From positions 1 through 39,908 of IMG/VR virus record IMGVR_UViG_2703718871_000021: 39,908 bases of DNA; one strand, given 5' to 3'. The notes beneath the pieces were generated by a model. The model saw nothing but the letters and a program-made list of their open reading frames with translations. It did not search any database and was not told the DNA's origin. The translations under genes and the position numbers were made by a program. Source of the stretch: a virus (Duplodnaviria > Heunggongvirae > Uroviricota > Caudoviricetes). Shown one piece after another: positions 5,049 through 39,908 of the stretch. Within the stretch, counting starts at the first letter, position 1. Each line of letters begins with the position of its first letter.

Positions 5049-5810
5049 TTACGAGGAAGCGTTAGCTATTTGAGCTTGTGTAAATTCGAAACCAGAATTT
5101 TGTAACCGTTGCACTAGACGAGGAACTGTTTCACGTACATGGTCGTTGAAATTCAGATACAAAATCCCGTTAGCATCAGAAGGCTGTTCTAGGTGCTGTT
5201 TCTGAAGGATTGCTACATTGCTGCGCCCTAAGGACGAAAGAAGCATACCCATCTCGAGTACAACGTTCTGTCTTGCGCGGGGTTGGATTTCTGCTTCACC
5301 GGCGCGCTTTGAGTATCCCATATCATCAGGTGTCAAAAGAACAATCCCGAAACGGGTAGCAGTTTGTCCTTGCCCAATTTCACGTTCAAGCTCTTCAATA
5401 ATGGTGAGTCCAGTCCCTCCCGTATTCTGCAAAATGAAATGGTCTGGTAATCCAAGTTTATGAAGGATTAGCTCAAGTTGCTCCTTTGCAGTATGGTCAT
5501 GGCCGTGAACAATGAATATCTTTTTGGGGAGCTCAGATGGCTGTTCTACGGCTAGTGGTGTTGCCGTGGGCGGCGTTCCTAAATGGGTCATTATTGCAGT
5601 TTCAACATTGGGACGTTCTTGAGGGTTACCTTGAAACTGAATGGTCCGGGTGGTGTAAAGGTTAACAATTACGCCATTCGTTAAACGATAGCAGTCACAA
5701 GTCTCACGCTGTTCGTGGGAAAAATTGGTGAACCCACACTCCCTCAAAAAGTCAGGAAAAGATTCTCTCGGGTATGGATAGGTGATCGGCATTTCAGTTA
5801 GTTCCTGCAT
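5049..5810 (-). CDS. TIR-like-domain protein with unknown N-terminal domain (candidate defence or counter-defence effector)
   Basis: 253-aa ORF; residues ~97-230 (KKIFIVHGHDHTAKEQLELIL...GLTIIEELE...FGIVLLTPDDMGY...NVVLEMGML) fit my recollection of the bacterial TIR-like family (PF10137/COG4271 type); N-terminal ~95 aa unassignable; co-oriented with DNA polymerase gene. Confidence 0.6.
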   Translation of the reverse strand: MQELTEMPITYPYPRESFPDFLRECGFTNFSHEQRETCDCYRLTNGVIVNLYTTRTIQFQGNPQERPNVETAIMTHLGTPPTATPLAVEQPSELPKKIFIVHGHDHTAKEQLELILHKLGLPDHFILQNTGGTGLTIIEELEREIGQGQTATRFGIVLLTPDDMGYSKRAGEAEIQPRARQNVVLEMGMLLSSLGRSNVAILQKQHLEQPSDANGILYLNFNDHVRETVPRLVQRLQNSGFEFTQAQIANASS

Positions 5811-12217: not shown

Positions 12218-12841
12218 CTAACGTTTACGGCGGTAAATACGGTGTTCGATCATTACACCTATGATCTGTAAGTTCATATCTGCACTACGAAAAATAGGGT
12301 AATCAGGATTTAGGGGGATTAATTCAAAGTCGTCGATGCCGATTCCTAATGGACGGTATTTTTTAAATGTAGCTTCGTGACCGTCGTTTTTGGCGACAAC
12401 AAACTCCCCTGGTGCAGGACATAGCTCAGGATCGATGATAACAATGTCTCCTTCTTTAAACTCTGGTTGCATGCTGTCGCCATCAATACGTAATGCGAAG
12501 CATGTTTCTGGAATGTCAGAGTCTGCCAAAATATATTCAAATTCCCCTGTCAGATCTGTTATGTCTCTTGCTTCTGTAAGCTCTCCTGCCTGAACGTAAC
12601 TTAATATAGGTATGCGTCTGGTACTTATCTCCGCGAGAGGCATAATATTTTTACCGTTCAGTAGCCAGTCTGGGCTACATTTCAAGGCCTTAGCCAGATC
12701 CAGAAGATTGCGTGGCTTTCTAGTTCGTCCACTTTCGATGGATTCTATGGATTGTTGGCTAACCCCTGCAGAATTCGCTACTTCCACTTGAGTCATTCCT
12801 AATTCCAAACGACGTGCTTTAAAACGGGCTGCGAGAGACAT
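12218..12841 (-). CDS. cI-like repressor (XRE-type HTH plus S24 LexA-like peptidase domain)
   Basis: 207 aa from ATG 12841 (RBS AGAAGGA); N-terminal HTH (LGMTQVEVANSAGVSQQSIESIESG); C-terminal S24 signature with Ser in GDSMQPEF and downstream Lys (FKKY); ORF-track start 12892 is probably an upstream non-ATG artefact. Confidence 0.85.
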   Translation of the reverse strand: MSLAARFKARRLELGMTQVEVANSAGVSQQSIESIESGRTRKPRNLLDLAKALKCSPDWLLNGKNIMPLAEISTRRIPILSYVQAGELTEARDITDLTGEFEYILADSDIPETCFALRIDGDSMQPEFKEGDIVIIDPELCPAPGEFVVAKNDGHEATFKKYRPLGIGIDDFELIPLNPDYPIFRSADMNLQIIGVMIEHRIYRRKR

Positions 12842-12961
12842 GGGATTAGTCCTTCTGGGTTGTATTAATGTGTATACCCACATTAAAAACAATTTTTGTT
12901 GTATTTGACAAACCTTGTTTGTTGTTGCTAAATACCACTAAAATTGTATGAGGTGAAAGCA
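12842..12961. promoter_or_regulatory. divergent promoter/operator region between repressor and cro-like gene
   Basis: 120-bp intergenic; rightward promoter candidate TTGACA (12905-12910) with TG-n-TAAATA extended -10 (~12926-12934); repeated TTGTAT-containing motifs and inverted repeat ATGTG...CACAT. Confidence 0.45.
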
Positions 12962-13177: not shown

Positions 13178-15364
13178 ATGTCCGATAGCAAACCATGGGG
13201 AGCTACGCCTGATGAGTGGTTTCATTTCGACCTGGTATTGGGGAGAACTGATCATCTTCTCCCAGTTGTATGTAACCCCGGTGCGACCATATCCCCTGAT
13301 AGTAAACTGAAAGCGCTGGGTAAGACGCCAAGTCGCTATAACCGGGACCATCAGGTCACCGGTATTGCTCAATGGACCGGGCATGTTGTTACTGAGCATG
13401 ATTTTGCCCGCTGGTCGAATGAACCGGATTATGGCATCTGCGTGCGTACAGGCCATGGCTGGCTGGCGCTGGACTGTGATAGCGAAGATGAAGACATTCA
13501 GGCAGATATTCGCAAAACGCTTGTGCAACTTCTGGGGGAGTTGCCGCCGCGACGCTGGCGAGCAAACAGTAATAAGTGTCTGTATCTGCTGGCCGTTGAT
13601 GGTGATTTCCGTAAGCGTATCCATCGCCTGGCGGGGGATATGGGCATTATCGAGTTGCTGGCGAACGGGCAGCAGTTCGTTGCCTGCGGTACGCACAGCA
13701 GCGGCGCGCGTATTGAATGGGACGGTGGTTTGCCGGATGAACCTCCGGCTATTACAGGTGAGCAGCTTGAAACGCTGTGGCAGCGCCTGGCTGAACAACT
13801 CCCTGTGTCGGTAACCACCGAAGCGGGCAACACGAAGATGCGCGACCGTTCAGCATTCACGCCCGGCGCGACGGATGATACAGCTGAATATCTTGATGCC
13901 AATGGCTGGACGCTGCTGGATGGCGCAAACGGTGAACGATATATCCGCTGTCCGTTTGAAGACGGCCACAGTAGCGGAGGCGATCCAACAAGCACTGTTT
14001 ATTTTCCTGCGGGAACCGCAGGCTTTGAGCAGGGGCATTTTAAATGCCTGCATGCCAGTTGCGCGCATCGTGATGACGGAGATTTCCTGAATGCCATCGG
14101 GATCCGCAACGACGATTTCGAAGATCTGACCAGCATCGAAGTGGCGGAACCTTTACCGCTGCCTGCTTTCGAGCGTGATAAATGGGGGCGTATCGAGGCA
14201 ACCATCAGCAACGCAGCCAAAGCAGTAGTACGCTCTGATTTTGTGGACATCGATATTCGCTTTGACCAGTTCCGCGACGAAATCATGTTTGCCCCGGCAG
14301 GATCCGGACAATGGCGGGCATTCACCGATGCGGATTATGCGCGCCTGCGCATCACGATGGAAAAGCGGGGATTTAAACCTGTTGGTCGTGAACTTATTCG
14401 CGATGTGGTGTTACTTGCAGCCGATGAACAACCATTCGATTCAGCGATCACCTGGCTGAACGGGCTGGAGTGGGATGGCGTGCCGCGCATCGAATGTTTC
14501 TACCATACGCACTTCGGTACAGCCGACACGCCTTATACCCGTGCGGTGTCTATGTACATGTGGACCGCGTTGGCGGGGCGAGTACTGGAGCCAGGCATCA
14601 AAGCGGATATGGTGCCGATCCTCGTTGGTCCGCAGGGCTGCGGTAAGTCTTCCGGAGTGGAGGCACTGAGCCCTGATCCTGCGTTTTTTACTGAAATCTC
14701 TTTTGCCGAAAAAGACGATGATCTCGCTCGAAAAATGCGTGGTCGGCTGGTGGCAGAGATTGGTGAACTGCGCGGACTTAATACCAAAGAGCTGGAGTCA
14801 ATCAAAGCGTTTGTGACGCGTACTCACGAAAACTGGATCCCGAAATACCGGGAGTTCGCCACCCAGTTTCCTCGTCGCCTGGTGTTCGTTGGTACCACTA
14901 ATGAGGACGAATTCCTTGCGGACAAGACTGGTAACCGTCGCTGGCTCCCCGTGGAAGTGTCGAAAGTCGACGTGAAAGCGATAAAAAGAGATCTCCTTTT
15001 ACTTTGGGCTGAGGCTCGTGAGGTGTTTCAGCGTCTGGGGGGTATCCAGTTCCGTGAGGCTGAACAACTGGCAGCGAGTGTCCATGAACAGTACACCATC
15101 AAGGATGCTTGGCTTGAAACGGTAGAGAAATGGCTCGACACGCCCGACCTGATGACTAATGAACTTCCGCGAAATTGCGAATTTTTACGCGCAAGTGATG
15201 TTTTGCGTGATGCGATTGGGCTAAATCCTGACCGCATCGGAAAACGCGAAGAAATGCGAATTAGTAATGTTTTGCAAAATTGCGGGTATAAGCGTGCCCA
15301 AAGGCGAATTGGGGGGAAAAAATGCAAGGTTTGGGAACCGCTGGAACCACGCGGAACCACCTAA
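13178..15364 (+). CDS. replication primase / P-loop NTPase (prim-pol-like N-terminus, VirE/D5-type C-terminus)
   Basis: 728-aa ORF; Walker A GPQGCGKSS and Walker B-like LVFVGTTNED in the C-terminal half; Cys/His-rich mid-region (CPFEDGHSSG...HFKCLHASCAH); directly after cro. Confidence 0.8.
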   Translation: MSDSKPWGATPDEWFHFDLVLGRTDHLLPVVCNPGATISPDSKLKALGKTPSRYNRDHQVTGIAQWTGHVVTEHDFARWSNEPDYGICVRTGHGWLALDCDSEDEDIQADIRKTLVQLLGELPPRRWRANSNKCLYLLAVDGDFRKRIHRLAGDMGIIELLANGQQFVACGTHSSGARIEWDGGLPDEPPAITGEQLETLWQRLAEQLPVSVTTEAGNTKMRDRSAFTPGATDDTAEYLDANGWTLLDGANGERYIRCPFEDGHSSGGDPTSTVYFPAGTAGFEQGHFKCLHASCAHRDDGDFLNAIGIRNDDFEDLTSIEVAEPLPLPAFERDKWGRIEATISNAAKAVVRSDFVDIDIRFDQFRDEIMFAPAGSGQWRAFTDADYARLRITMEKRGFKPVGRELIRDVVLLAADEQPFDSAITWLNGLEWDGVPRIECFYHTHFGTADTPYTRAVSMYMWTALAGRVLEPGIKADMVPILVGPQGCGKSSGVEALSPDPAFFTEISFAEKDDDLARKMRGRLVAEIGELRGLNTKELESIKAFVTRTHENWIPKYREFATQFPRRLVFVGTTNEDEFLADKTGNRRWLPVEVSKVDVKAIKRDLLLLWAEAREVFQRLGGIQFREAEQLAASVHEQYTIKDAWLETVEKWLDTPDLMTNELPRNCEFLRASDVLRDAIGLNPDRIGKREEMRISNVLQNCGYKRAQRRIGGKKCKVWEPLEPRGTT

Positions 15365-15520
15365 AAGAGAAGGTGGTTCCACCTTGCAGACCTTGTGGCA
15401 AGCGGGGCGGAACCACTGGAACCACTGGAACCGCCTTTCTACTAGAAACCCCATATATATATAAGTCGATTGAGGGAAAGGTTAGGAAAAGGTGGTTCCA
15501 GGTGGGGGCAGGTGGTTCCA
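15331..15520. repeat. iteron-like repeat array with AT-rich spacer (putative phage replication origin)
   Basis: GGAACC(A/G)C in direct orientation at 15334, 15343, 15353, 15409, 15418, 15427 and inverted (GGTGGTTCC) at ~15375, 15494, 15514; ATATATATATAA at 15453-15464; overlaps the 3' end of the primase gene. Confidence 0.5.
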
Positions 15521-15650: not shown

Positions 15651-16073
15651 ATGCGTAATATTCAACAGGTTTTAGAGCGCTGGGGTGGCTGGGCAGCGAG
15701 TGAAGGTGGTAGCGTCTACTTTCCTCCTGTTGCAGCTGGGTTTAAGAATCTGCTACCCGCGACGCAGTCTGGAAGGCTGAAATGCAGTGACAATGACGGT
15801 CTTATCATCAACTCCGCTATGAGCTGCCTGAAGAAAAAAGATCCGTATCTGTGCACGCTCCTTGAGTGGCATTACGTCCAGGCCATGCCCGTGCGGACGA
15901 TGGGTGAGAAGCTCGGCGTATCTCACACCCACGTTCTGAAGAGGCTTCAGGCGGCAGAGGGATTTATTGACGGTTGCTTAGCCATGCTGGATGTGGTGCT
16001 CGAAATGGATCAGTCGGTTCAGTCAAAGCCTCAGGCTATCAGGACTTTGCGTAGGAGCTGCTCGGCGGCATAA
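15651..16073 (+). CDS. Q-like late-gene antitermination protein
   Basis: 140-aa ORF starting MRNIQQVLERWGGWAA, resembling enterobacterial prophage Q antiterminators as I recall them; sits between replication genes and lysis cassette. Confidence 0.65.
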   Translation: MRNIQQVLERWGGWAASEGGSVYFPPVAAGFKNLLPATQSGRLKCSDNDGLIINSAMSCLKKKDPYLCTLLEWHYVQAMPVRTMGEKLGVSHTHVLKRLQAAEGFIDGCLAMLDVVLEMDQSVQSKPQAIRTLRRSCSAA

Positions 16074-16104
16074 TATCCAGCAATCAATCACGTAAGGGAA
16101 CCAG

Positions 16105-16446
16105 ATGGCTCTGATCAGCGTTCGCAACAGATTTGAAAGCTTCATGGAACAGAGGTACCCAGACCTGTCGTTGCAGGTCAAAGGTAATATTGGCGCATCA
16201 ATGAAGGCTCAACTTGGTATCAGGATTGAACGAGAATTGTACAGTGAAGATGTTACTTACTGTGATTCAGCAGTTCAGTTGATGTGGACACTCTTTCAGG
16301 CAGGTGTTCTGGCCGAACGAAGAGCTACCAGCGTTACGCTTCCTGCGCTGAAGGCAAAGCCGGATAGCTTCTACGATGCGGGTTATAACGAAGGTATTCA
16401 GGACTGTCGTAAACATCTGACGGCATCAGGCATCAAGGTAAGATAA
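16105..16446 (+). CDS. hypothetical protein in the Q-to-lysis cargo position
   Basis: 113-aa ORF with AGGGAA-type RBS; no recognisable motif; followed by a hairpin terminator. Confidence 0.6.
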   Translation: MALISVRNRFESFMEQRYPDLSLQVKGNIGASMKAQLGIRIERELYSEDVTYCDSAVQLMWTLFQAGVLAERRATSVTLPALKAKPDSFYDAGYNEGIQDCRKHLTASGIKVR

Positions 16447-16511
16447 AAAATAGTTGTGGAATTCCAAAAAGCCGATTAGCCTGATATCTGTTGAAAACAG
16501 TTCATCACGAA

Positions 16512-16537
16512 GAGGCTCCCGCAAGGGGGCTTTTTTA
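16512..16537 (+). terminator. putative rho-independent terminator
   Basis: GCTCCC-gcaa-GGGGGC followed by TTTTTT. Confidence 0.45.
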
Positions 16538-16692
16538 ATGCTCTATTCTCAGTAAAAGTTAATAAAACAGGGTTTTCGTCGCGAAAAAACGCTATGCAGT
16601 TTTTGCCCTTTTTTATGCACCTTTTATTCACTCGGATTTCGTCATTCTGGACCACTTAAGTTGATTAAATAGGCCTTTCATCGCAAATCTAT

Positions 16693-16722
16693 TGCGAGTG
16701 GTGATCGTGTGGTTCCTATAAC
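16693..16722 (+). promoter_or_regulatory. candidate late promoter (PR'-like)
   Basis: TTGCGA (16693-16698), 18-bp spacer, TATAAC (16717-16722), about 45 bp upstream of a strong terminator hairpin and about 170 bp upstream of the holin gene. Confidence 0.3.
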
Positions 16723-16765
16723 GCACATTATGTTAAATAACCTCCTTTTTTAACAAATTTAACAA

Positions 16766-16790
16766 GGTTCGCTATGGCGAACTTTTTTTG
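16766..16790 (+). terminator. putative rho-independent terminator (tR'-like) upstream of lysis genes
   Basis: GGTTCGC-tatg-GCGAAC followed by TTTTTTT. Confidence 0.5.
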
Positions 16791-16890
16791 TATTCAGGGC
16801 CCACCGAAGGACGGCTCATAACCCAATCCTACGGGCGTATACGCAGGGCCCGCCTTTCAACAACACCCCGTAATGGCGGAGGTGGGAAGT

Positions 16891-17232
16891 ATGAAAATGC
16901 ACAATGCTCCTCATTCCTGGCCTGACTTACTGGAACTCTTACAAAGTTGGTGGCGTGGAGATACGCCGTTGGGCGCAGTGGTTATGTCAATTGTTATGGC
17001 TGGCTTGCGCATTGCCTATTTTGGCGGTGGCGGCGGCTGGAAACGAAAAACGCTTGAGATTTTGCTCTGTGGTGCTCTGACGCTGACCTTTGCATCCGCT
17101 CTTGAGTATGTTGGATGGCCTAAATCGCTTTCTGTTGCCATTGGTGGTGGTGTTGGGCTGATCGGTGTCGATGCTATTCGTGGGGCTGCAATGCGAGTAA
17201 TCGGTAACAAGTTTGGTGGCTCTAAGGAGTAA
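16891..17232 (+). CDS. holin with dual-start motif
   Basis: Strong RBS GGAGGTG 7 nt before ATG 16891; Met-Lys-Met start as in lambda S holin/antiholin; two to three hydrophobic helices (AVVMSIVMAGLRIAYFGGGG, ILLCGALTLTFASAL, VAIGGGVGLIGV); immediately precedes endolysin. Confidence 0.75.
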   Translation: MKMHNAPHSWPDLLELLQSWWRGDTPLGAVVMSIVMAGLRIAYFGGGGGWKRKTLEILLCGALTLTFASALEYVGWPKSLSVAIGGGVGLIGVDAIRGAAMRVIGNKFGGSKE

Positions 17233-39309: not shown

Positions 39310-39908
39310 TGGCATTCAGAATGAGTGAACAATCACGAACCATCAAAATTTATAATCTGCTGGCCGGAACTAATGAATTTATTGGTGAAGGTGACGCATA
39401 TATTCCACCTCATACAGGTCTACCTGCAAACAGTACCGATATTGTACCGCCAGATATTCCGGCTGGCTTCGTGGCTATTTTCAACAGTGATGAGGCGTCC
39501 TGGCATCTCGTTGAAGATCATCGTGGTAAAACGGTTTATGACGTGGCTTCCGGCGACGCGTTATTTATTTCTGAACTCGGTCCGTTACCGGAAAATGTTA
39601 CCTGGTTGTCGCCGGAAGGGGAATATCAGAAGTGGAACGGCATAGCCTGGGTGAAGGATACGGAAGCAGAAAAACTGTTCCGGATACGGGAGGCGGAAGA
39701 AACAAAAAACAACCTGATGCAGGTAGCCAGTGAGCATATTGCGCCGCTTCAGGATGCTGCAGATCTGGAAATTGCAACGGAGGAAGAAATCTCGTTGCTG
39801 GAAGCATGGAAAAAGTATCGGGTATTGCTGAACCGTGTTGATACATCAAGTGCACCGGATATTGAGTGGCCTGCTTCCCCAGTGGAATCAAGGAGTAAAC
39901 AAGCATAA
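39309..39908 (+). CDS. tail fiber assembly protein (Tfa/gpU-like)
   Basis: 199-aa ORF starting [58 protein letters not shown], typical Tfa N-terminus; stop is the last triplet of the window. Confidence 0.7.

What the first reader, a model, noticed from the sequence alone, without database searches (positions are those of the whole stretch)
16450..16890. Candidate Q-dependent late promoter with short leader and tR'-like terminator upstream of the holin gene
A TTGCGA-N18-TATAAC promoter candidate (16693-16722) is followed about 45 bp later by a strong terminator (16766-16790), then the holin RBS. In lambdoid phages Q modifies RNA polymerase paused just downstream of PR' to read through tR'; this layout fits that mechanism. 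The octamer GTGGTTCC between the -35 and -10 also occurs in the iteron array, which may be coincidental.
Basis: partly seen in the sequence, partly recalled or inferred. Interest (0 to 1): 0.35.

Follow-up and report, generated by a model that had tools for sequence, protein, structure and literature searches.

The report
Xer recombination site, not late promoter
The supposed late promoter of this E. coli prophage lies inside a conserved site of the kind plasmids use to let the host XerC/XerD enzymes resolve DNA dimers; the terminator after it is real, but the true late promoter is probably elsewhere.

Summary
The hexamers and the hairpin exist. However, TTGCGA is at 16692-16697, so the spacer is 19 bp, not 18. 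The -10 (TATAAC) lacks the key final T. Matches of this quality are no more frequent than chance.

The "-10" is the inner end of an XerC arm. Window 16711-16738 reads GGTTCCTATAA-CGCACA-TTATGTTAAAT, a 28-bp dif/psi-type Xer core. Its XerD arm is identical to that of E. coli dif. About 150 bp of conserved DNA lies on the XerC side, as in pSC101 psi; a profile of the phage copies hits psi at E = 3e-12.

The same module occurs in about 50 phage, phage-plasmid and prophage loci, with or without a Q gene. It always points the same way as the flanking late genes. In two relatives the dif-targeting element ISKpn21 sits exactly 5 bp from the XerC arm.

The terminator at 16764-16790 is real and recurs in relatives with different stem sequences. 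Three Q alleles (31-44% identical) precede near-identical downstream DNA, which argues against a Q-binding site here. A better PR' candidate overlaps the Q stop codon (16047-16074).

Verdict: a psi-like Xer site bracketed by two terminators. The general logic of Q, terminator and holin holds, but the promoter assignment does not.

The parts
16047..16074 (+). Alternative PR' candidate, TTGCGT-N16-CATAAT, overlapping the Q stop codon. Inferred, not shown.
   Evidence: This is the only + strand site between Q and the holin with a proper -10 (A at position 2, T at position 6) and a 16-18 bp spacer. It is conserved in L001. Its position matches 933W, where PR' overlaps the Q 3' end and the start site was mapped 258 nt upstream of tR' (PMC7547250).
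16509..16536 (+). Intrinsic terminator after orf113. It ends the Q operon, or is tR' if PR' lies at the Q 3' end.
   Evidence: Folding gives -17.4 kcal/mol, z = -3.4, a GCAA tetraloop and a run of six T. Equivalent terminators follow every Q allele in relatives.
16557..16710 (+). Accessory-type sequences on the XerC side of the core. Conserved blocks are AAAACAGGG, AACGCTATGCA (16588-16598), TGCAC-N5-ATTCA (16616-16630), CCACTT, AAATAG..TTTCA and GCGAGTGGTG (16694-16703).
   Evidence: The blocks are conserved across 36 non-redundant copies. A profile of the copies hits pSC101 psi at E = 2.9e-12, including about 70 bp upstream of the psi core. The psi sequence reads GGCGAGTGGTGTTCGGGC before its XerC arm.
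16692..16722 (+). It overlaps the accessory block, the XerC arm and the first base of the central region.
16711..16721 (+). XerC-binding arm, GGTTCCTATAA.
   Evidence: It matches dif GGTGCGCATAA at 8 of 11 positions. The inner TATAA is palindromic with the XerD arm's TTATG. Relatives carry arms identical to dif (L086) or to psi (L145).
16722..16727 (+). 6-bp central (crossover) region, CGCACA.
   Evidence: It is always 6 bp long and its sequence varies among copies.
16728..16738 (+). XerD-binding arm, TTATGTTAAAT.
   Evidence: It matches E. coli dif at 11 of 11 positions (PMC2731167; PMC2410131). There is one match in the window against 0.01 expected. It is exact in 17 of 17 evaluable copies that were found through the accessory DNA alone.
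16746..16758 (+). Conserved flank on the XerD side, TTTTTTAACAAAT. Its function is unknown. It can pair with UGUUAAA of the XerD arm, and its reverse strand matches the XerD arm at 8 of 11 positions.
   Evidence: It also supplies the -35 of a minus-strand promoter-like match, TTGTTA-N18-CATAAT.
16764..16790 (+). Intrinsic terminator: 9-bp stem, UAUG loop, seven U.
   Evidence: Terminators at the same place in L171, L228, L246, L008 (phage YP3) and the second copy in L193 have different stem sequences.
16797..16851 (+). Y-shaped structured element between the terminator and the holin. Its role is unknown.
   Evidence: Folding gives -25 kcal/mol. Three sequences share 18 consensus pairs, 3 of them compensatory.
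16878..16899 (+). Holin ribosome-binding site GGAGG and dual start codons (ATG at 16891 and 16897, M-K-M).
   Evidence: Pfam PF05106. In RefSeq homologues the holin starts at the position equivalent to 16891.
15651..16073 (+). Q antiterminator gene (Q21/Q933W family).
   Evidence: PF06530, E = 6.6e-42. The family assignment follows bioRxiv 10.1101/651190.

Best explanation
Window 16557-16738 is a psi/cer-type Xer recombination site. It has about 150 bp of accessory DNA followed by a 28-bp core: XerC arm 16711-16721, 6-bp central region 16722-16727, and XerD arm 16728-16738.

Inferred mechanism, taken from what is established for psi and cer. The host recombinases XerC and XerD bind the core. 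PepA, plus a second factor (ArcA- or ArgR-like), wraps the accessory DNA of two directly repeated copies on one supercoiled circle. Dimers of the circular phage genome are thereby resolved to monomers. That genome would be the VapE/iteron replicon, either in a plasmid-like state or during early theta replication.

TATAA is the inner XerC arm, and GCGAG... belongs to the conserved accessory block.

The hairpin at 16764-16790 is a real terminator. Together with the terminator at 16509-16536, it shields the site and the lysis genes from transcription until Q-modified RNA polymerase reads through both. That polymerase most likely starts at a promoter overlapping the Q stop codon (16047-16074).

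Shown: the identity and conservation of the core, the homology to psi, the insertion-sequence targeting in relatives, and the terminator folds.

Inferred: actual recombination, the accessory proteins involved, the position of PR', and the biological role.
For: - The core matches dif and psi. The XerD arm is 11/11 to dif, the XerC arm 8/11, and the spacer is 6 bp. One match is found in the window against 0.01 expected.
- 36 non-redundant homologous copies show the known signature of Xer sites: an invariant XerD arm, a more variable XerC arm, and a variable 6-bp centre. These rules are stated in bioRxiv 10.1101/2024.04.05.588136.
- An ascertainment-free check agrees. Of 17 evaluable copies found through the accessory DNA only, all 17 have the exact XerD arm.
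- A profile of the phage copies hits pSC101 psi at E = 2.9e-12, covering the core plus about 70 bp of accessory DNA.
- The 2278-bp ISKpn21 is inserted 5 bp from the XerC arm, with a 5-bp target duplication (CGCGT), in L246; L185 shows the identical left junction. This is the behaviour reported for this dif-targeting family (PMC10132070).
- Related cores occur in true phage-plasmids: pE76_003, and more than 60 plasmids of the p48 type that carry ParA/ParB.
- All copies point from accessory DNA to core in the direction of the flanking genes. The same orientation rule is known for ColE1-type resolution sites (PMC2831885).
- The prophage has its own integrase at 470-1873, so the site is not needed for integration.
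Against: - No experiment shows XerCD binding or recombination at this site.
- The XerC arm differs from dif at 3 of 11 positions.
- No canonical ArgR or ArcA box was found. The TGCAC-N5-ATTCA box is 1 bp longer than an ARG box.
- ColE1 cer itself is not hit by the profile.
- A phage that packages from concatemers has no obvious need to resolve dimers, and this copy sits in an integrated prophage.
- The module often lies next to terminase or portal genes, which could hint at a packaging role.
- The proposed PR' at the Q 3' end has no clear sigma-dependent pause element. No equivalent promoter passed the scan for the L007-type Q allele.
Confidence: 0.75

Rival explanations
1. TTGCGA-N19-TATAAC is the Q-dependent late promoter PR'. 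Polymerase pauses just downstream, Q loads onto it, and 16764-16790 is tR'.
For: - A Q gene lies upstream and late genes lie downstream.
- A terminator follows 43 nt later.
- TATGTT (16729-16734) is a good -10-like pause element. It starts 12 bp after the start of the -10, the same geometry as at lambda PR' (own knowledge).
- CGnGTGGT occurs twice in the spacer, 11 bp apart, recalling the direct-repeat Q-binding element of phage 21 (PMC6606751).
Against: - The spacer is 19 bp, the -10 ends in C, and the match is at chance level.
- The hexamers are not conserved in homologues.
- Any dif-like palindrome produces the two hexamers 12 bp apart.
- The module occurs with no Q gene beside it.
- Three Q alleles, 31-44% identical and with different recognition helices, share the same downstream DNA.
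- In 933W, the closest studied relative, PR' overlaps the Q 3' end.
Confidence: 0.08
2. A Pcer/Rcd-like unit. A weak promoter overlaps the XerC arm and is repressed by bound XerCD. It makes a roughly 60-nt RNA (about 16729-16789) only when the site is in a multimer, as ColE1 cer makes the checkpoint RNA Rcd.
For: - In ColE1 the best -10 (TACAAT, L243 3915-3920) lies at the same junction of XerC arm and central region. It has a 15-bp spacer, as the literature reports.
- Rcd is transcribed from the accessory DNA towards the core and ends at a terminator.
- The window has a terminator about 60 nt downstream and a stem-loop that includes the XerD arm.
- The XerD-side flank is conserved.
- Some copies have a decent promoter spanning the core, for example L199 TTGACG-17-TATGTT.
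Against: - The -10 hexamer at this junction ends in C or G in the full-length copies; only the partial copy L125 has CATAAT.
- The terminator is absent from many copies, including those between terS and terL and those upstream of portal genes.
- There is no similarity to Rcd or cer and no Rfam match.
Confidence: 0.1
3. The site serves exchange or integration rather than dimer resolution. It would act like Acinetobacter pdif modules, or like the attachment site of elements that integrate through Xer, and so drive phage mosaicism.
For: - The module lies at mosaic joints. Different Q alleles join common DNA at about 16526.
- It takes different positions in different phages.
- L193 carries two copies.
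- It is shared between plasmids and phages.
Against: - The joints lie at the upstream edge of the accessory DNA, not in the 6-bp crossover region.
- Sites with accessory DNA are known to favour intramolecular resolution (bioRxiv 10.64898/2026.02.23.706985).
- The site is internal to the prophage, and the prophage has its own integrase.
Confidence: 0.05

Closest known systems
pSC101 psi (Xer site with PepA/ArcA accessory sequences)
   Same: Both have a 28-bp core with a 6-bp centre and a near-identical XerD arm (TTATGTTAAAC in psi, TTATGTTAAAT here). The XerC arm of relative L145 equals that of psi. The block GCGAGTGGTGwTCG just upstream of the XerC arm is shared. The profile hit is E = 2.9e-12.
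   Different: This site sits in a tailed temperate phage, between Q and the lysis genes, and is bracketed by terminators. The distal accessory DNA is not alignable with psi. No ArcA box has been verified. Recombination has not been tested.
ColE1 cer with Pcer and the Rcd RNA
   Same: Both have accessory DNA on the XerC side. A box TGCAy-N-ATTCA lies about 100 bp upstream. A -10-like hexamer lies at the junction of the XerC arm and the centre. A short terminated transcript is possible. The orientation relative to incoming transcription is fixed.
   Different: cer has an 8-bp centre. There is no detectable sequence homology. The promoter-like hexamer here is weak and not conserved.
E. coli chromosomal dif
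   Same: The XerD arm is identical, the XerC arm matches at 8 of 11 positions, and the centre is 6 bp.
   Different: dif works without accessory DNA and depends on FtsK. The centre sequence here differs from dif's TGTATA.
Lambdoid PR'-tR' units (lambda 6S RNA; 933W/Sp5 PR'-StxS-tR'; phage 21 PR')
   Same: A Q gene is followed by one or more terminators and then the late or lysis genes. The Q protein belongs to the Q21/Q933W family.
   Different: In 933W, PR' overlaps the Q 3' end. In phage 21 the Q-binding element is TGAGCA twice, between the -35 and the -10. Neither pattern is found at 16692-16722.
Acinetobacter pdif modules and elements that integrate through Xer (CTX phage and others)
   Same: These are dif-like sites carried on mobile DNA. 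The same family of insertion sequences targets their XerC side.
   Different: Those sites lack cer/psi-type accessory DNA. They flank cargo modules or serve as the attachment site. Here there is a single internal site, and the phage has its own integrase.

Membership tests
Q-dependent late promoter unit (PR'-QBE-pause-tR') | A Q antiterminator gene immediately upstream | tested here: met
   PF06530, E = 6.6e-42, at 15651-16073.
Q-dependent late promoter unit (PR'-QBE-pause-tR') | A strong sigma-70 promoter at the stated site | tested here: not met
   The spacer is 19 bp and the -10 is TATAAC. The scan did not call it. The match is at chance frequency and is not conserved in homologues.
Q-dependent late promoter unit (PR'-QBE-pause-tR') | A Q-binding element cognate to the adjacent Q | tested here: not met
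   DNA that is 98-99% identical follows three Q alleles that are 31-44% identical and differ in the helix-turn-helix. There are no TGAGCA-type repeats.
Q-dependent late promoter unit (PR'-QBE-pause-tR') | A -10-like pause element in the early transcribed region | tested here: inconclusive
   TATGTT at 16729-16734 fits the requirement, but it is the invariant XerD arm.
Q-dependent late promoter unit (PR'-QBE-pause-tR') | An intrinsic terminator before the late genes | tested here: met
   16764-16790 folds at -10.4 kcal/mol and is followed by seven U.
Q-dependent late promoter unit (PR'-QBE-pause-tR') | A mapped start site and Q-dependent read-through | not testable with these tools
   This needs 5' RACE or dRNA-seq, and in vitro transcription.
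Xer recombination site with accessory sequences (psi/cer type) | An 11-bp XerD arm matching the consensus | tested here: met
   TTATGTTAAAT matches dif at 11 of 11 positions. It is exact in 17 of 17 independently found copies.
Xer recombination site with accessory sequences (psi/cer type) | An 11-bp XerC arm whose inner 5 bp are palindromic with the XerD arm, and which is less conserved than the XerD arm | tested here: met
   GGTTCCTATAA matches dif at 8 of 11 positions. Variants in relatives include arms identical to dif and to psi. The rule is stated.
Xer recombination site with accessory sequences (psi/cer type) | A central region of 6-8 bp with a non-conserved sequence | tested here: met
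   It is always 6 bp, with at least 12 different sequences.
Xer recombination site with accessory sequences (psi/cer type) | About 150-200 bp of accessory DNA next to the XerC arm | tested here: met
   About 150 bp of conserved blocks are present. They are homologous to the proximal accessory DNA of psi.
Xer recombination site with accessory sequences (psi/cer type) | An ArgR or ArcA box at the proper distance | tested here: inconclusive
   TGCAC-N5-ATTCA lies 95 bp upstream; cer has TGCAT-N4-ATTCA 113 bp upstream. AGTTAATAAA at 16557-16566 resembles an ArcA box, but only by recall.
Xer recombination site with accessory sequences (psi/cer type) | XerC-, XerD- and PepA-dependent resolution of direct repeats | not testable with these tools
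   There is indirect in vivo support only: ISKpn21 sits 5 bp from the XerC arm in L246, and L185 shows the same left junction.
cer Pcer/Rcd checkpoint RNA | A functional promoter in the core and a conserved RNA of about 70 nt | tested here: not met
   The hexamer is not conserved. The terminator is absent from many copies. There is no similarity to cer or Rcd.
Attachment site of an element that integrates through Xer | The site forms the prophage-chromosome junction, and the element has no integrase of its own | tested here: not met
   The site is internal, lying between Q and the holin. An integrase gene is at 470-1873.

The most novel reading that the evidence does not exclude
The Xer core and its flanks may form a switch gated by transcription or by XerCD. 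While the phage DNA is a quiet circle, the site resolves dimers and bound XerCD keeps a core-embedded promoter silent. That promoter uses the XerC arm as its spacer and the XerD-arm TATGTT as its -10; it is good in some copies, such as L199. When Q-modified polymerase sweeps through, or when multimers accumulate, resolution stops and late, lysis or packaging genes are expressed, or an Rcd-like RNA is made. This would couple the multimer state of the genome to late gene expression in tailed phages.
Probability: 0.1. Interest if true: 0.8.

Novelty: new member of a known kind. Interest (0 to 1): 0.5.

Why it matters
Sites of the cer/psi type are textbook plasmid features. I found no description of them in tailed temperate phages in the searchable literature, although that library is incomplete.

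Here one conserved module turns up at the head of late operons, or inside them, in prophages of many Enterobacterales genera and in phage-plasmids. This suggests that these phages pass through a plasmid-like circular stage in which host XerCD keeps them monomeric. It also offers a handle on how phages and plasmids exchange maintenance functions.

For annotation there is a practical warning. Any dif-like palindrome yields two -10-like hexamers 12 bp apart and can be mistaken for a promoter followed by a pause element.

Tried and rejected
- Rfam (gathering and E-value thresholds) and tRNA scans found nothing relevant in the region.
- Phage 21 Q-binding repeats (TGAGCA twice) were looked for and are absent.
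- I first read the module as an activator-dependent late promoter (Mu C or P2 Ogr style). I then read the TTATGCAC repeats as DnaA boxes of an origin, and then the module as a pac or cos site because of its terminase neighbours. All three were dropped once TTATGTTAAAT proved to be the dif XerD arm. A full-text search for the sequence itself gave the lead. The psi homology and the ISKpn21 targeting then confirmed it.
- Nested inverted repeats in the accessory DNA (AAAACAGGGCG/CGCCCTGTTTT) looked like an RNA switch. They are only partly conserved, so I did not pursue them.
- No conserved + strand sigma-70 promoter was found anywhere in the module.
- The minus-strand match TTGTTA-N18-CATAAT is largely a consequence of the dif consensus and is lost in the terS-terL copies.
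- The profile search does not hit ColE1 cer.
- The sequences of the phage 21 PR' scaffolds are only in figures and could not be read.

Full report
**Context**

The window is an E. coli prophage. It starts with an integrase (470-1873). It carries a PolA/SNF2/SSB replication set, a cI-like repressor (12218-12892, minus strand), a VapE primase-helicase (13178-15364) and an iteron array (15343-15519). These are followed by Q (15651-16073, PF06530), orf113 (16105-16446) and a 426-bp gap. After the gap come the holin, endolysin, Rz, TerS, TerL and portal genes. Near-identical DNA is found in four vB_EcoM phages and in 145 complete E. coli chromosomes.

**Checking the observation**

TTGCGA is at 16692-16697 and TATAAC at 16717-16722, so the spacer is 19 bp. 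The -10 lacks the final T. The consensus scan did not report the site. Sites of equal quality occur 68 times in the window, against 79.5 +/- 7.9 in shuffles.

The hairpin at 16764-16785, followed by seven T, is a sound intrinsic terminator: -10.4 kcal/mol, z = -3.5. A second, stronger terminator lies at 16509-16536 (-17.4 kcal/mol).

GTGGTTCC occurs 9 times in the window, 7 of them in the iterons. About one copy is expected by chance.

**What the region is**

Weak matches to a Yersinia phage and to other E. coli elements showed that 16560-16760 is a diverged but conserved module. Two pattern scans of viral contigs recovered many copies. After removing duplicates and chance hits, 36 aligned. 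A scan of species-representative genomes added 13 more, from Citrobacter, Enterobacter, Pantoea, Rahnella, Trabulsiella, Kosakonia and others.

The invariant 11-mer TTATGTTAAAT is the XerD arm of E. coli dif (GGTGCGCATAA-TGTATA-TTATGTTAAAT). A full-text search for the sequence gave the lead. The dif, cer and psi sequences come from PMC2731167 and PMC2410131.

The window reads GGTTCCTATAA (16711-16721), CGCACA (16722-16727) and TTATGTTAAAT (16728-16738). The pattern has one match in the window against 0.01 expected.

Across copies the XerD arm is invariant. The XerC arm varies, and includes arms identical to dif (L086) and to psi (L145). The centre is always 6 bp and variable. This is the signature used to recognise Xer sites.

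Because one scan pattern contained the XerD arm, I repeated the test with an accessory-only profile on loci that had been found through the accessory pattern alone. All 17 evaluable copies carry the exact arm.

**Homology to psi**

A profile of the phage copies hits pSC101 psi at E = 2.9e-12. The aligned stretch includes about 70 bp upstream of the core. psi reads GGCGAGTGGTGTTCGGGC-GGTGCGCGCAA. The window reads TGCGAGTGGTGATCGTGT-GGTTCCTATAA.

About 150 bp of further conserved blocks lie on the XerC side. That is where cer and psi carry the accessory DNA bound by PepA plus ArgR or ArcA. A box TGCAC-N5-ATTCA (16616-16630) resembles the cer ARG box TGCAT-N4-ATTCA, but it is 1 bp longer. ColE1 cer itself is not hit by the profile.

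**Independent in vivo support**

In the Enterobacter phage-plasmid pE76_003 (L246), a 2278-bp ISKpn21 (ends TGT...ACA) sits exactly 5 bp from the XerC arm, with a 5-bp duplication, CGCGT. L185 shows the same left junction. ISKpn21 is reported to insert 5 bp from the XerC side of dif-like sites (PMC10132070).

More than 60 E. coli plasmids of 47-49 kb share a related core. One that I inspected is a phage-plasmid carrying ParA/ParB, a toxin-antitoxin pair, terminase, capsid and tail genes.

**Genomic settings**

The module is found in several settings:
- after Q, with three different Q alleles, and before a holin or other genes
- after VapE and a 91-aa helix-turn-helix protein, ahead of a T7-type portal
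- between terS and terL
- between terL and the portal gene
- after a head-morphogenesis gene

In every case it points from accessory DNA to core in the direction of the neighbouring genes. ColE1-type resolution sites obey the same rule relative to incoming transcription (PMC2831885).

**Where the late promoter is**

Three Q alleles precede DNA that is 98-99% identical from about 16526 onward. The window type is 44% identical to the L007 type and 31% identical to the L192 type, and the three have different putative recognition helices. A Q-binding element specific to each Q is therefore unlikely to lie inside the shared module.

In the related 933W-type phage, the -35 and -10 (TTTACG-N16-TATCAT) overlap the Q 3' end. 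This agrees with a start site mapped 258 nt upstream of tR' (PMC7547250).

In mEp390, a gene insertion has displaced DNA resembling the Q 3' end, and that displaced DNA still carries a promoter-like site.

In the window, the only + strand site between Q and the holin with a proper -10 is TTGCGT-N16-CATAAT at 16047-16074. It overlaps the Q stop codon and is conserved in L001.

I therefore infer the following order: PR' at the Q end, then orf113, the first terminator, the Xer site, the second terminator, a structured leader, and the holin. This inference has weak points. I see no clear pause element after this candidate promoter, and the L007-type allele has no site that passes the same scan.

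**The terminator**

Terminators occupy the same place, 25-35 nt after the XerD arm, in L171, L228, L246, L008 (phage YP3) and the second copy in L193. Their stem sequences differ, which suggests that termination there is under selection. Copies that abut a gene start lack the terminator.

**The Pcer/Rcd analogy**

In ColE1 the best -10 (TACAAT) lies at the junction of the XerC arm and the centre, with a 15-bp spacer. Rcd runs across the XerD arm to a terminator. However, the hexamer ends in C or G in the full-length phage copies; only the partial copy L125 has CATAAT. I give this reading low probability.

**Function**

Identification as a psi-type Xer site is well supported. The biological role is inferred: most likely it resolves dimers of the circular VapE/iteron replicon in a plasmid-like or early replicative state. 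The two terminators would shield the site, and late read-through would sweep it. The frequent position next to packaging genes, and the fact that concatemer-packaging phages do not obviously need dimer resolution, remain unexplained.

Noticed in passing
window 16797-16851: A Y-shaped hairpin lies between the terminator and the holin. It is conserved in L171 and L228 with 3 compensatory pairs out of 18, and has an invariant loop CGGCUCAUAACCCAA that looks like a tRNA-Met anticodon loop. It has no Rfam match.
   Followed up: partly
L246 2658-4935; L185: ISKpn21 (2278 bp) is inserted 5 bp from the XerC arm of the phage module, with the target duplication CGCGT. L185 shows the same left junction. 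This extends the known dif-targeting of this insertion-sequence family to phage-borne sites.
   Followed up: yes
window 16746-16758: The flank on the XerD side, TTTTTTAACAAAT, is conserved. Its reverse strand matches the XerD arm at 8 of 11 positions and supplies the -35 of a minus-strand match, TTGTTA-N18-CATAAT. Its function is unknown.
   Followed up: partly
L193 (module copies ending near 1218 and 5237): One contig carries two co-oriented copies of the module, flanking terL, portal and a head-morphogenesis gene. The second copy has a weak accessory region followed by a terminator and a secreted-protein gene.
   Followed up: no
L199, L048, L086, L089 (module cores): In some copies a decent sigma-70 promoter spans the Xer core, for example TTGACG-17-TATGTT. 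The XerC arm acts as the spacer and the XerD arm as the -10. The window's equivalent -35 is poor.
   Followed up: partly
window 5049-5810 (-): A TIR-domain gene resembling the CAP12/Pycsar effector (PF10137, E = 3e-31) sits in the prophage early region. It is probably a defence cargo gene.
   Followed up: no
window 39652-39850 (+): Rfam family IS009 matches at 219 bits, inside the tail-fibre region.
   Followed up: no
L002 (mEp390) 1866-2870: Q is truncated by an oppositely oriented inserted gene. The displaced DNA resembling the Q 3' end still carries a PR'-like site, TTAACG-N17-TTTACT, followed by AAGAGTGGTT as in 933W.
   Followed up: partly
window 16105-16446: orf113 has no Pfam match. It is present in L167 (86% identical) but deleted in phage 611R5 (L001). 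It would lie between the proposed PR' and the first terminator, and so might be expressed in lysogens.
   Followed up: no
L005 (E. coli EH2252) about 749-1500: An IS1 insertion cuts the accessory region at the position equivalent to window 16647. The core, the terminator and the holin remain intact.
   Followed up: no
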